NCBI RefSeq assembly: GCF_988242995.1
Contig: NZ_OZ547043.1
Strand: one strand, 5' to 3'
DNA length: 64,000 nucleotides
The notes beneath the pieces are model-generated. The model searched no databases. It worked only from the letters and a program-made list of their open reading frames with translations, and had not been told where the DNA came from. Of this stretch, positions 7,456 through 13,828 are shown one piece after another. The first letter of the stretch is position 1. Every line of letters starts with the position of its first letter. The position numbers and the translations under genes are program-made.

Positions 7456-8769
<1,314 letters not shown>

Positions 8770-8841: not shown

Positions 8842-10494
<1,653 letters not shown>

Positions 10495-10706
10495 TTAGGT
10501 TGAAAAGACGATGGAATAACCAGGACGGGAAAGCAGTATACCCGAACATGACCTGTGCCACAAACTTTCATTATCCCTCCTCTTCGCCAGCGCACTATTG
10601 AAATCAGGAGTGAGAAAATAGCCCCTTTGGGGTAAATGTTTTTGACGCAAATCAAGCGCTTGTCATTTAAAAAATGACACAAATCGCGCTTGACCACGTA
10701 ATTCCC

Positions 10707-11498
10707 TTAGAGATCAATTTCCTGCCGTTTTACCTGTTGCCAGACTTCTTCCATTGTTTCGAGGTCAACACCTGTCATTTCCAGTCCACGCGCGGCAACA
10801 ATACGCTCCACTTCGCGAAAACGACGCTCGAATTTTTCATTGGCTTTTTGCAATGCGATTTCCGCTTTTGTCCCTAAATGACGAGCCAGATTGACCGTGG
10901 CAAACAGCAGGTCGCCCATTTCCTCCTCCAGTTTAGCCTGGTCGATAACAGCCTGCCGTGCCTCGTACATCACCTCGTCGATCTCTTCGTAGACTTTATC
11001 GACTACCGGACCAAGCGTCGTCCAGTCAAAACCAACGTTGGCGCAACGTTTCTGGATTTTTTGTGCACGCATTAATGCCGGTAAACTACGAGGAATATCG
11101 TCCAGCGCCGAATGCTGCGCTTTCTGCGCGCGCTCTTCGGTTTTGATTTGCTCCCAACGGGCAAGCACTTCACTACTGTTTTCGGCAGAACTGTCAGCAA
11201 AAACATGCGGATGGCGACGTTCTAATTTATCGCTGATCGCGGCGCAAATATCATTAAAGTCAAAGCGCCCTTCTTCCTGGGCCATTTGTGCGTAAAACAC
11301 CACCTGGAACAGCAGATCGCCCAGTTCACCGCGCAGATCGTCAAAATCTTCACGGGCGATGGCGTCCAGCACCTCGTAGGTTTCTTCAAGGGTGTAAGGC
11401 GCAATGGTGGCAAATGTCTGCTCTTTATCCCACGGGCAGCCGTTTTCCGGGTCGCGCAGGCGCTGCATGATGGTGAGCAAACGGTCGATTTGATTCAT
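10707..11498 (-). CDS. mazG: Nucleoside triphosphate pyrophosphohydrolase
   Basis: 263-aa ORF with tandem MazG-type domains (EEXXE motifs). Confidence 0.9.
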   Translation of the reverse strand: MNQIDRLLTIMQRLRDPENGCPWDKEQTFATIAPYTLEETYEVLDAIAREDFDDLRGELGDLLFQVVFYAQMAQEEGRFDFNDICAAISDKLERRHPHVFADSSAENSSEVLARWEQIKTEERAQKAQHSALDDIPRSLPALMRAQKIQKRCANVGFDWTTLGPVVDKVYEEIDEVMYEARQAVIDQAKLEEEMGDLLFATVNLARHLGTKAEIALQKANEKFERRFREVERIVAARGLEMTGVDLETMEEVWQQVKRQEIDL

Positions 11499-11556
11499 TG
11501 AATTGTCCTGAAAATTGCGGGTCTGTCAGGTGTAATACCTTCGAGTAAAAGATATC

Positions 11557-11584
11557 GCTGGATACGGCTGACGCCATATCCAGC
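11557..11584 (-). terminator. Hairpin directly after relA stop (gctggata-N12-tatccagc); possible relA terminator or attenuator
   Basis: 8-bp perfect inverted repeat read from sequence; followed on minus strand by a weak T-tract (gatatctttt). Confidence 0.3.
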
Positions 11585-11593
11585 TATGTAAGA

Positions 11594-13828
11594 CTAACTC
11601 CCGTGCAACCGACGCGCGTCGATAACATCCGGCACCTGGTTGAGTTTACCCAGCACGCGGCCCAGCACTTGCAGGTTGTAAATCTCAATGGTCATGTCGA
11701 TGGTCGCCAGTTGCTGTTTGGTGTCGCTACGGCTGGCAACGCCAAGCACGTTCACCTTCTCGTTGGCGAGAATGGTCGTGATATCACGTAACAACCCACT
11801 ACGATCATTAGCCACCACGCGGACCACCAGCGAATATCCGGCGGAGTAGCTCTCGCCCCATACCGCGTCAACAATGCGTTCTGGCGCATGGGAGCGCAGT
11901 TCCGCCAGTTGCTCACAGTCTGCACGATGCACTGAAATACCGCGTCCCTGGGTAATGAAGCCGACAATCTCATCTCCAGGAATCGGCTGGCAGCAGCGCG
12001 CGATGTGGTGCATCAGGTTACCGACACCTTCAACCACCACACGACCGTTATCTTTACTGCGGTTTTGCGGCGTGTAGCTTTTTTGCTGAAGTTGCTTCAG
12101 CGCGGCGGCGTCCTGCTCTTCGGCACTCGGCTTATTAAATTGCGATTGCAGGAAGTTCACCATCTGATTGAGACGGATATCCCCGCCACCAATCGCCGCC
12201 AGCAACTCGTCGACATCATTGAAGTTGTAACGCGGCAGCAGATGTTTTTCTGCTTCTTTCAGGCTGATCCCCAGATGTTCCAGCTCGTCGTCAAGGATTT
12301 GCCGCCCAGCCAGAATGTTTTTGTCACGGTCCTGTTTACGGAACCAGGCGTGAATTTTCGAACGCCCACGGCTGGTTGTGACGTAACCGAGGTTTGGGTT
12401 TAACCAGTCACGGCTGGGGTTCGGCTGTTTCTGGGTGATAATTTCAATCTGGTCGCCCATCTGCAGCTGGTAGGTGAACGGCACAATGCGCCCGCCAATT
12501 TTTGCCCCGATGCAGCGGTGTCCGACATCACTGTGGATGTGGTAAGCGAAGTCCAGCGGTGTTGATCCCGCAGGCAAATCAACGACATCACCTTTCGGCG
12601 TAAAGACGTACACCCGGTCGTCAAAGACCTGGCTACGTACTTCGTCGAGCATTTCGCCGGAATCAGCCATCTCTTCCTGCCACGCAATCAGTTTACGCAG
12701 CCAGGCAATCCGGTCTTCATGTCCCGAACGTGCGCCGCCAGCTGCCGCGCCCTCTTTATATTTCCAGTGCGCAGCAACACCCAACTCTGCATCTTCATGC
12801 ATCTGTTTAGTGCGGATTTGGATCTCAACGGTTTTGCCACCTGGTCCCAGAACCACGGTATGAATAGACTGATAACCGTTTGGTTTCGGGTTAGCGACGT
12901 AATCGTCAAACTCATCCGGCAGGTGGCGATAGTGAGTGTGCACTATCCCCAGTGCGGCATAACAATCCTGTAAACGCTCGGCGACAATACGTACCGCACG
13001 CACATCAAACAGCTCATCGAAGGCGAGGTTCTTTTTCTGCATTTTGCGCCAGATGCTGTAGATGTGTTTCGGACGACCATACACTTCAGCTTTAACGCCT
13101 TCAGCTTTCATCTCAGCGCGCAGATGGCCGACAAACTCTTCGATATAGTGTTCGCGGTCGAGACGGCGTTCATGCAGCAGTTTTGCGATGCGTTTGTATT
13201 CGGTCGGGTGGAGATAACGGAAGCAGTAATCTTCCAGCTCCCATTTCAGTTGTCCAATCCCAAGACGGTTCGCCAACGGCGCGTAGATATTGGTGCACTC
13301 TTTTGCCGCCAGTACGCGTTCATCTTCCGGCGCGTCTTTTACTTCGCGCAGATGAGCAATACGCTCTGCCAGTTTGATGACCACGCAGCGAAAATCATCG
13401 ACCATCGCCAATAACATCCGGCGAACGTTATCGACCTGTTCGGAGGAAACAGAATCGGTATGCGTCGCTTTCAGCTGGCGGATCGCCGCCATATCACGCA
13501 CGCCGTGAATAAGGTTAACGACCGACTTACCGACGCTCTCACGCAGCACATCTTCGCTGACTACGTTGGCATCCGCCAGAGGGAACAGCAGCGCCGCCCG
13601 CAGCGTGTCAATGTCCATACTTAATGTCGAGAGGATCTCCACCATCTCAACACCACGCCACAATAACAGACTGGCATCCGGATGCCCCTGCGTCTGTTGC
13701 AGACAATACGCCCAGGTTTCGGCTAAGCACTCACACGACTTCTGGCTGGTAATACCCAGACTTGCGATCCATTTTTCCGGATCAAATTCACCAGCCTTAT
13801 TGATATGTGCACTTCTTACCGCAACCAT
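11594..13828 (-). CDS. relA: GTP pyrophosphokinase, (p)ppGpp synthetase I
   Basis: 744-aa ORF with RelA/SpoT synthetase domain, TGS and ACT regions. Confidence 0.95.
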   Translation of the reverse strand: MVAVRSAHINKAGEFDPEKWIASLGITSQKSCECLAETWAYCLQQTQGHPDASLLLWRGVEMVEILSTLSMDIDTLRAALLFPLADANVVSEDVLRESVGKSVVNLIHGVRDMAAIRQLKATHTDSVSSEQVDNVRRMLLAMVDDFRCVVIKLAERIAHLREVKDAPEDERVLAAKECTNIYAPLANRLGIGQLKWELEDYCFRYLHPTEYKRIAKLLHERRLDREHYIEEFVGHLRAEMKAEGVKAEVYGRPKHIYSIWRKMQKKNLAFDELFDVRAVRIVAERLQDCYAALGIVHTHYRHLPDEFDDYVANPKPNGYQSIHTVVLGPGGKTVEIQIRTKQMHEDAELGVAAHWKYKEGAAAGGARSGHEDRIAWLRKLIAWQEEMADSGEMLDEVRSQVFDDRVYVFTPKGDVVDLPAGSTPLDFAYHIHSDVGHRCIGAKIGGRIVPFTYQLQMGDQIEIITQKQPNPSRDWLNPNLGYVTTSRGRSKIHAWFRKQDRDKNILAGRQILDDELEHLGISLKEAEKHLLPRYNFNDVDELLAAIGGGDIRLNQMVNFLQSQFNKPSAEEQDAAALKQLQQKSYTPQNRSKDNGRVVVEGVGNLMHHIARCCQPIPGDEIVGFITQGRGISVHRADCEQLAELRSHAPERIVDAVWGESYSAGYSLVVRVVANDRSGLLRDITTILANEKVNVLGVASRSDTKQQLATIDMTIEIYNLQVLGRVLGKLNQVPDVIDARRLHGS

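What the first reader, a model, noticed from the sequence alone, without database searches (positions are those of the whole stretch)
10621..10679. Palindromes between mazG and pyrG
tgtcatttaaaaaatgaca (10661-10679) is a perfect AT-rich palindrome and cccctttgggg (10621-10631) is a short GC hairpin; on the coding (minus) strand they lie just after the mazG stop and about 180 bp before pyrG. They may be the mazG terminator and/or part of pyrG promoter control.
Basis: seen in the sequence. Interest (0 to 1): 0.2.

Follow-up and report, generated by a model that had tools for sequence, protein, structure and literature searches.

The report
Conserved promoter-like module upstream of pyrG
The two small palindromes between mazG and pyrG in E. 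coli are real, but they most likely are not RNA hairpins: they sit inside a deeply conserved DNA module that looks like a second, activator-dependent promoter for the CTP-synthase/enolase operon, and no record examined here annotates it.

Summary
The window is E. coli chromosome (eno-pyrG-mazG-relA on the minus strand). Both repeats exist. The AT-rich one has 8-bp arms around a 3-nt centre, so it is not a perfect palindrome. The GC one lies at 10622-10632, off by one.

The terminator reading is poorly supported. Neither hairpin has a U-tract, covariation is absent, and published K-12 Term-seq tables list no 3' end in the interval.

Comparison of about 190 Enterobacterales loci shows what is conserved. 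A CRP/FNR-type dyad, TTGA-N6-TCAA (10655-10642), is followed 22 nt later by TATTTT (10620-10615). In the Erwinia/Pantoea-like class the dyad spacer and the middle of the hexamer vary freely, while TGA, TCA and T-A-n-n-n-T stay fixed in 31 of 31 distinct sequences. The dyad centre falls at -40.5/-41.5, as in a Class II activator-dependent promoter pointing at pyrG.

On that reading the GC "hairpin" is the promoter spacer and the AT palindrome lies at -71 to -53. No experimental start site or factor binding could be found, so activity in E. coli is inferred. Modest interest: a likely unannotated member of a known kind.

The parts
10707..11498 (-). mazG coding sequence (263 aa), the upstream gene; stop codon at 10709-10707
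   Evidence: ORF list; annotated mazG in matching E. coli records
10652..10693 (.).
   Evidence: the repeat finder; folds; kept by sequence conservation, not covariation; a natural E. coli isolate has a 5-nt deletion that makes it a perfect 17-bp-arm palindrome
10661..10679 (.). Perfect only in E. coli/E. albertii; most relatives have TGTGATTT...AAATAACA with a mismatch
10642..10655 (-). Dyad TTGATTTGCGTCAA (TGA-N6-TCA core), a CRP/FNR-family type site matching the FNR consensus at 9 of 10 positions; centre at -40.5 of the predicted start. Overlaps the 3' arm of the outer repeat
   Evidence: Invariant in 49 Enterobacteriaceae sequences; kept as TGTGA-N6-TCAAC with a free N6 in Erwiniaceae-like lineages; perfect FNR consensus in L056/L057
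10634..10662 (-). Invariant block CAAGCGnTTGATTTrCGTCAAAAnCATTT that contains the dyad
   Evidence: alignment A1
10622..10632 (.). Fixed length, variable sequence; its last G is the nearly fixed G at -14
10615..10620 (-). -10-like hexamer TATTTT, 22 nt after the dyad
   Evidence: TATTTT in 66 of 67 distinct class-A sequences (TAATTT in the other); T-A-n-n-n-T in 31 of 31 class-B sequences, information profile 9,9,1,1,1,9
10607..10608 (-). Predicted start of the upstream promoter ('P2'); equals K-12 about 2909794-2909795 (-). Not experimentally mapped
   Evidence: Inference from hexamer position
10564..10614 (-). Variable segment between the P2 hexamer and the pyrG -35. Hexamer-to-(-35) length is fixed at 62-63 nt in Enterobacteriaceae with no conserved RNA structure; it is the site of ERIC-like insertions in other genera
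10535..10563 (-). Known pyrG core promoter (P1): -35 TTGTGG 10563-10558, 17-nt spacer, -10 TATACT 10540-10535; start about 10529-10527
   Evidence: Invariant across Enterobacterales; the pyrG 5'-UTR clone of Adams et al. 2021 begins CCCGTC...
10476..10571 (-). Candidate 31-codon upstream ORF (ATG 10571-10569, SD-like GAGGAGG upstream) whose TGA overlaps the pyrG ATG (ATGA). It starts upstream of P1, so only longer transcripts could translate it
   Evidence: coding status unproven
8842..10479 (-). pyrG (CTP synthase), the downstream gene

Best explanation
The two palindromes are sub-features of a conserved DNA-level module, about 95 bp long, that begins just after mazG and has the anatomy of a Class II activator-dependent sigma-70 promoter reading towards pyrG-eno ('P2'). 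Shown by comparison: a two-fold symmetric TGA-N6-TCA site (TTGATTTGCGTCAA, 10655-10642) lies at a fixed 22-23 nt from a T-A-n-n-n-T hexamer (TATTTT, 10620-10615) with G at -14 and no -35 element. Inferred: a CRP/FNR-family dimer binds the dyad centred at -40.5, recruits RNA polymerase, and transcription starts near 10608. It would run through the known pyrG promoter about 80 bp downstream. On this reading the CCCC-AAA-GGGG 'hairpin' is only the -24 to -14 spacer. The AT-rich palindrome (-71 to -53) sits where the polymerase alpha C-terminal domain, or a second factor, docks upstream of a Class II activator. The large inverted repeat may persist because its right arm is the constrained dyad and the left arm mirrors it (a quasi-palindrome), not because an RNA hairpin is selected. 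Which factor binds, and whether P2 fires in E. coli, is not shown.
For: (1) In 49 distinct Enterobacteriaceae sequences the invariant parts are the dyad block and (GC)TATTTTC. The 5' arm of the big hairpin, the inner repeat and the GC hairpin vary. (2) Dyad and hexamer keep a fixed spacing even where roughly 55-125-bp ERIC-like insertions push them away from P1. (3) Erwiniaceae keep TGTGA-N6-TCAAC, then 23 nt, then TAnnnT, though the surrounding sequence is unalignable. The composite occurs in only 0.1-0.4% of shuffles of any one interval. (4) With 120 further metagenomic loci, anchoring on the dyad alone gives 31 of 31 distinct class-B sequences with T, A and T fixed and the three middle bases random. 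N6 is random, and one variant has perfect CRP half-sites, TGTGA-N6-TCACA. (5) Across families the dyad is anchored to the pyrG promoter (94-110 nt) and not to the mazG stop (24-166 nt). (6) Folding z-scores of the repeat region are equal on both strands (-2.14 and -2.04), as expected for DNA symmetry. (7) A natural 5-nt deletion in E. coli 8479 perfects the quasi-palindrome by changing the left arm only.
Against: No experimental start site near K-12 2909795(-) could be retrieved, and the accessible TSS supplements were uninformative. The only start used in the literature found here is P1. The main texts of the E. coli FNR ChIP-seq and CRP SELEX papers do not mention pyrG, mazG or eno. A 9-of-10 FNR match is not above chance in the window (4 found, 2.6 expected). 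In Enterobacteriaceae the dyad spacer and its 3' flank are invariant too, which is more than a CRP/FNR site needs, so another constraint overlaps. The predicted start is a pyrimidine, and the hexamer TATTTT matches TATAAT at only 4 of 6 positions.
Confidence: 0.55

Rival explanations
1. RNA-level element of the mazG transcript: the compound hairpin, and/or the GC mini-hairpin followed by CUAUUUUCU, terminates the relA-(mazEF)-mazG transcript or protects its 3' end from exonucleases.
For: The hairpin starts 14 nt after the mazG stop and is stable (-21.1 kcal/mol, z -3.6). The outer helix can pair in 89% of cells across 49 sequences. The region folds better than shuffles in 63% of relatives. The small hairpin shows a few real compensatory variants such as CCCG/CGGG, and more G-U than A-C substitutions (16 vs 6). 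mazG is weakly expressed, so Term-seq could miss its 3' end.
Against: There is no U-tract after either stem and no minus-strand terminator-like site in the scan. No 3' end is listed in K-12 2909700-2909999 in the Term-seq tables, while neighbouring entries are present. Covariation is at shuffle level. The inner helix shows the opposite wobble bias (7 vs 17). The flanks stay invariant where the small hairpin is lost (Cedecea, Mangrovibacter). The large hairpin is absent in Erwiniaceae, while the dyad and hexamer are kept.
Confidence: 0.15
2. A distal protein-binding site that modulates the known pyrG promoter P1 (at about -120) without a start site of its own, for example a nucleoid-associated protein such as IHF, or a repressor or activator acting by looping.
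For: The plus strand reads AATCAAGCGCTTG, an exact match to the IHF core WATCAANNNNTTR, with an upstream A/T tract. In Enterobacteriaceae the substitutions seen fall in the NNNN positions. The distance from dyad to P1 is similar in two families (94-110 nt).
Against: The IHF core occurs 7 times in the window against 2.8 expected, which is weak, and it is not kept in Erwiniaceae, where the dyad is. A distal site does not explain an invariant T-A-n-n-n-T at a fixed 22-23 nt. The distance to P1 shifts by roughly 55-125 bp with ERIC-like insertions, and by about 4-5 bp between families, so there is no strict phasing.
Confidence: 0.15
3. In E. coli the repeats have no present function: they are a quasi-palindrome kept by template-switch mutation next to a relic site, and the GC stem is chance.
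For: Each repeat alone is not improbable (8% and 10% of shuffles). A natural isolate shows a template-switch-like 5-nt deletion that perfects the palindrome. The perfect inner repeat is specific to E. coli and E. albertii.
Against: About 30 invariant non-coding positions persist across genera whose MazG proteins differ by up to about 25%. The segment is near-invariant in 5425 E. coli genomes. The footprint is kept across two families.
Confidence: 0.1

Closest known systems
Class II CRP- or FNR-dependent sigma-70 promoters (activator dimer centred near -41.5, overlapping a missing -35; established knowledge, e.g. the Busby and Ebright model)
   Same: A two-fold TGA-N6-TCA site sits 22-23 nt upstream of a TAnnnT hexamer, which puts the centre at -40.5/-41.5. 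There is no -35 hexamer and an A/T-rich tract lies upstream of the site. Half-sites are TTGA/TCAA (FNR type) in Enterobacteriaceae and GTGA/TCAA or TCAC (CRP type) in Erwiniaceae-like lineages.
   Different: No start site, factor binding or regulation has been shown. The dyad spacer and its 3' flank are invariant in Enterobacteriaceae, beyond what such sites need. It lies in tandem about 80 bp upstream of a strong constitutive-looking promoter.
Intrinsic (Rho-independent) terminator
   Same: A stable stem-loop lies shortly after a stop codon, and a small GC stem is followed by a T-rich stretch (CTATTTTCT).
   Different: No contiguous U-tract abuts either stem, no mapped 3' end exists, there is no covariation, and the GC stem is only 4 bp.
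Quasi-palindromes subject to template-switch mutation in E. coli (known mutational mechanism; recalled from memory)
   Same: It is an imperfect inverted repeat with an asymmetric internal loop. A natural variant carries a multi-base change that makes the palindrome perfect in one step.
   Different: Here one arm coincides with a deeply conserved site, so the repeat is probably not neutral.
Known pyrG promoter of E. coli (major 5' end about 48 nt upstream of the ATG; Weng et al. 1986, recalled from memory)
   Same: Same operon and same direction; its -35/-10 and leader are invariant across Enterobacterales.

Membership tests
Intrinsic terminator | Stable G+C-rich stem-loop on the transcribed strand | tested here: met
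   The compound hairpin folds at -21.1 kcal/mol with z -3.6. The small stem is only 4 bp, -5.6 kcal/mol.
Intrinsic terminator | Run of U immediately 3' of the stem | tested here: not met
   The tails are UUUGCGUC (partly inside the extended stem) and CUAUUUUCU. The scan found no minus-strand terminator-like site.
Intrinsic terminator | RNA 3' end mapped at the tail | tested here: not met
   The Term-seq tables of Adams et al. 2021 hold no entry in K-12 2909700-2909999 and none labelled mazG. Low mazG expression could hide one.
Intrinsic terminator | Stem maintained by compensatory change in relatives | tested here: not met
   78.2% of cells are paired against 76.7% in shuffles, and the covariation score is 0.097 against 0.083.
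Class II CRP/FNR-type promoter | Two-fold symmetric TGA-N6-TCA site | tested here: met
   TTGATTTGCGTCAA at 10655-10642. It is conserved in 67 class-A and 31 class-B distinct sequences, with a free N6 in class B.
Class II CRP/FNR-type promoter | -10 hexamer with T-12, A-11, T-7 at the spacing that puts the site centre near -41.5 | tested here: met
   TATTTT lies 22 nt after the dyad (centre -40.5). Class B has TAnnnT at 23 nt (centre -41.5) in 31 of 31 sequences, information 9,9,1,1,1,9.
Class II CRP/FNR-type promoter | Weak or absent -35 hexamer | tested here: met
   No sigma-70 -35/-10 pair was found by the scan. The sequence at -35 is AAAAAC.
Class II CRP/FNR-type promoter | Mapped transcription start | not testable with these tools
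   The accessible TSS supplements did not contain even the known pyrG start.
Class II CRP/FNR-type promoter | Binding of, and dependence on, CRP, FNR or a relative | not testable with these tools
FNR site (TTGAT-N4-ATCAA) | Match to the consensus above chance | tested here: inconclusive
   The match is 9 of 10, but such matches occur 4 times in the window against 2.6 expected. The consensus is perfect in two divergent lineages, L056 and L057.
IHF site (WATCAANNNNTTR) | Core match and conservation | tested here: inconclusive
   There is an exact core at 10650-10662 (+), with 7 in the window against 2.8 expected. It is kept in Enterobacteriaceae but not in Erwiniaceae.
Dispersed repeat (REP/ERIC type) | Multiple copies per genome | tested here: not met
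   There is one place per genome in 5425 genomes, even in the sensitive mode.
Any Rfam RNA family | Covariance-model match | tested here: not met
   The only hit is a chance one: E = 5.3, 15.7 bits against a gathering score of 39.

The most novel reading that the evidence does not exclude
P2 is a real, condition-specific (carbon- or oxygen-responsive, CRP/FNR-family dependent) promoter. Its long-leader mRNA carries a translated 31-codon upstream ORF that ends in ATGA on the pyrG start codon. Coupled translation would then let these transcripts escape the Rho-dependent premature termination that Adams et al. found 36 nt inside pyrG on P1 transcripts. That would give E. coli a second, physiologically gated route to CTP synthase and enolase.
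Probability: 0.12. Interest if true: 0.55.

Novelty: new member of a known kind. Interest (0 to 1): 0.3.

Why it matters
pyrG (CTP synthase) is essential and is co-transcribed with enolase. Its transcriptional control in enterobacteria is usually described as a single promoter, with no regulator found in the sources examined here. A deeply conserved activator-type promoter upstream would link CTP and glycolytic enzyme supply to a global regulator. It would also explain why about 30 non-coding bases after mazG are frozen across genera. It is directly testable in K-12 with standard tools. More generally, it shows that small palindromes between genes can be by-products of protein-binding symmetry rather than RNA hairpins.

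Tried and rejected
1. Rfam scan of the interval: nothing real.
2. Consensus promoter/terminator scan: the only call was a terminator-like site on the plus (non-coding) strand at 10621-10633. No plus-strand 3' end appears in the Term-seq tables.
3. Covariation and wobble-asymmetry tests for the three helices: no support.
4. A conserved RNA hairpin between the P2 hexamer and the P1 -35, which looked promising by eye in Buttiauxella and Cedecea: RNAalifold finds none and the mean z is -0.45.
5. Dispersed-repeat membership: single copy.
6. IHF and FNR consensus matches as stand-alone evidence: not above chance.
7. Cra/FruR box: a 13-of-14 match upstream of the dyad in Erwinia is not significant alone, and the E. 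coli interval has none.
8. Small ORFs over the conserved block on either strand: broken in relatives, judged by eye on alignment A1.
9. Literature: no paper links mazG and pyrG transcription. TSS and 3'-end supplements of seven genome-wide studies were absent or uninformative. Olvera et al. 2009 map only eno promoters inside pyrG. FNR/CRP searches found nothing. The Cra SELEX paper is not held.

Full report
**Context**

The window is E. coli chromosome. On the minus strand lie eno (7456-8754), pyrG (8842-10479), mazG (10707-11498), relA (11594-13828) and rlmD. The 227-bp mazG-pyrG interval (10480-10706) is present once in 5425 of 5426 complete E. coli genomes at 95% identity or more, and no listed record annotates any feature in it. 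K-12 MG1655 has the same interval with three substitutions (window 10696, 10685, 10523), none in the features discussed. The conversion is K-12 coordinate = window + 2899187. K-12 experiments therefore transfer directly.

**Observation**

Both repeats exist.
- The AT-rich one (10661-10679) has 8-nt arms around a 3-nt centre. It is not a perfect palindrome.
- The GC one is at 10622-10632, one base off the stated coordinates, with a 4-bp stem.

On the mazG-sense strand the whole region folds into a compound hairpin that begins 14 nt after the stop codon, at -21.1 kcal/mol and z = -3.6. By chance, one 8-bp repeat appears in 8% of shuffles of the interval, two appear in 2%, and an all-GC 4-bp stem in 10%. 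The individual repeats are unremarkable, and the nested pair is mildly unusual.

**Is it a terminator?**

- Neither stem is followed by a U-tract. The tails are UUUGCGUC and CUAUUUUCU, and the consensus scan finds no terminator-like site on the minus strand.
- The supplementary Term-seq tables of Adams et al. 2021 (three growth conditions, K-12) hold no 3' end between 2909700 and 2909999 and none labelled mazG. Neighbouring entries (2909630 in pyrG, 2910995 in mazF) are present, so the lists are intact there.
- Across 49 distinct Enterobacteriaceae sequences the three helices are paired in 78.2% of cells against 76.7% in column shuffles, with essentially no covariation. The central C-G pair that makes the AT repeat perfect is kept in 5 of 49.
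- G-U versus A-C substitutions give no consistent strand signal: 16 vs 6, 7 vs 17 and 16 vs 6.
- Folding z-scores of the repeat region are the same on both strands, -2.14 and -2.04.

The small GC stem shows a few true compensatory variants, but it is lost in Cedecea and Mangrovibacter while its flanks stay invariant. The terminator reading is therefore weak, although low mazG expression could hide a 3' end.

**What is conserved**

I fetched 80 mazG loci from Enterobacterales genomes. The interval is 223-227 bp long in most of them. Two things are frozen.
- The known pyrG promoter and its leader: -35 TTGTGG 10563-10558, -10 TATACT 10540-10535. The 5'-UTR clone of Adams et al. begins at CCCGTC, window about 10529.
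- Within Enterobacteriaceae, a block CAAGCGnTTGATTTrCGTCAAAAnCATTT, then 13 variable bases, then (GC)TATTTTC.

The block covers only the 3' arm of the large hairpin. The dyad TTGATTT[AG]CGTCAA and GCTATTTTC keep a fixed 33-nt start-to-start offset even in genera where ERIC-like insertions (about 125 bp, shorter in two genera) separate them from the pyrG promoter.

**The cross-family footprint**

Erwinia and Pantoea have an otherwise unalignable interval. They nonetheless carry TGTGA-N6-TCAAC followed 23 nt later by TAnnnT. The composite (dyad plus hexamer at that spacing) occurs in 0.1-0.4% of dinucleotide shuffles of any one interval.

A metagenome scan with the invariant pyrG promoter/leader core added 120 loci, and 71 of 83 distinct upstream regions have the composite. 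To avoid selecting on the hexamer, I anchored only on the dyad and its distance to the pyrG -10.
- All 31 distinct class-B sequences have T, A and T fixed at hexamer positions 1, 2 and 6. The middle three bases are random (information 9,9,1,1,1,9).
- G is nearly fixed at -14, and the N6 spacer is random.
- The half-sites range from GCTGA/TATGA/TGTGA on the left to TCAAC/TCAAA/TCACA on the right.
- One variant, TGTGA-CTGTAA-TCACA, has perfect CRP half-sites.
- Two divergent Enterobacteriaceae lineages have a perfect FNR consensus, TTGAT-N4-ATCAA.

With the hexamer as -12 to -7, the dyad centre is at -40.5 (Enterobacteriaceae) or -41.5 (class B). Across families the dyad stays 94-110 nt from the pyrG -10, while its distance from the mazG stop ranges from 24 to 166 nt. 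It belongs to pyrG, not to mazG.

**Interpretation**

This is the anatomy of a Class II CRP/FNR-type activator-dependent promoter ('P2') about 80 bp upstream of the known start, with a predicted start near window 10608 (K-12 about 2909795).
- The GC 'hairpin' is its -24 to -14 spacer, and its last G is the conserved G at -14.
- The AT repeat lies at -71 to -53, where an alpha-subunit C-terminal domain or a second factor would sit. Erwiniaceae have a second dyad 21 bp upstream at the equivalent place.
- The large inverted repeat has the constrained dyad as its right arm. A natural isolate (E. coli 8479) carries a 5-nt deletion plus one substitution in the left arm only, and this turns the quasi-palindrome into a perfect one with 17-bp arms. 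That is the signature of template-switch mutation, which could keep the arms alike without selection for an RNA hairpin (inference).

**Limits**

- No experimental start site or factor occupancy could be retrieved. The TSS supplements I could open did not contain even the known pyrG start.
- The FNR ChIP-seq and CRP SELEX main texts do not mention the locus.
- FNR-like and IHF-like matches are not above chance on their own.
- The invariance of the dyad spacer and its 3' flank in Enterobacteriaceae exceeds what a CRP/FNR site needs, so some further constraint overlaps.

I put 0.55 on the promoter-module reading, 0.15 on an RNA element of the mazG 3' UTR, 0.15 on a distal site for the known promoter, and 0.10 on no present function. 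These readings are not mutually exclusive.

**Verdict**

If real, P2 is an unannotated member of a well-known kind of promoter in a very well-studied genome. Interest is modest, and it rises if the upstream ORF and the link to Rho-dependent termination hold.

Noticed in passing
window 10476-10571 (minus strand): A 31-codon upstream ORF ([31 protein letters not shown]) has an SD-like GAGGAGG, and its TGA overlaps the pyrG ATG (ATGA). It is open with the same overlap in most Enterobacteriaceae, and the 3-nt leader indel is in frame. It is broken in Buttiauxella and Cedecea and absent outside the family. It starts upstream of the known pyrG promoter. Its openness may simply follow from the invariant promoter and leader. 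Adams et al. flag the pyrG 3' end with 'uORF' without naming it.
   Followed up: partly
window 11499-11593: This strain has no mazE-mazF between relA and mazG (a 95-bp gap), unlike K-12, which carries mazEF and the antisense aMEF RNA there. Strain SK1144, identical in the intergenic region, also lacks them and has a frameshifted mazG.
   Followed up: partly
window about 10443 (K-12 2909630/2909628, minus strand): Published Term-seq shows a strong Rho-dependent 3' end 36 nt inside pyrG, and a pyrG fusion is more than 2-fold higher in a rho mutant (Adams et al. 2021). pyrG is therefore subject to premature termination just after its start codon.
   Followed up: partly
L014, L019, L025, L029, L038 (about 125 bp), L020, L027 (shorter); L071, L072: ERIC-like elements are inserted between the P2 hexamer and the pyrG -35 in Citrobacter, Kosakonia, Pseudocitrobacter, Klebsiella pneumoniae and an Enterobacter. 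A separate ERIC copy (matching the ERIC2 primer) lies inside the pyrG leader in Serratia and Symbiopectobacterium. ERIC elements are usually said to lie in transcribed regions, which would fit transcription across this spacer.
   Followed up: partly
L203 (E. coli strain 8479), equivalent to window 10680-10685: A 5-nt deletion plus one substitution removes the internal loop and turns the quasi-palindrome into a perfect palindrome with 17-bp arms (TCAAGCGCTTGTCATTT / AAATGACAAGCGCTTGA). It looks like a template-switch event.
   Followed up: partly
L052 3418-3431 and equivalents in L050, L054, L063: In Erwinia and some Pantoea a second dyad, GCTGAC(T/A)CGATTCA, lies 21 bp upstream of the CRP-like site. 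It matches the Cra/FruR operator consensus (recalled from memory) at 13 of 14 positions, which is not significant alone. It hints at carbon-flux control of pyrG-eno there.
   Followed up: partly
window 10558-10620: The distance from the P2 hexamer to the pyrG -35 is fixed at 62-63 nt in 35 distinct Enterobacteriaceae sequences, although the middle about 35 nt vary freely and have no conserved RNA structure. The reason for the length constraint is unexplained.
   Followed up: partly
window 10621-10633 (plus strand): The only terminator-like call of the consensus scan is on the plus strand: GCCCCTTTGGGGT followed by AAATGTTTTT, facing away from any plus-strand gene. No plus-strand 3' end is listed there in the Term-seq tables.
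   Followed up: partly
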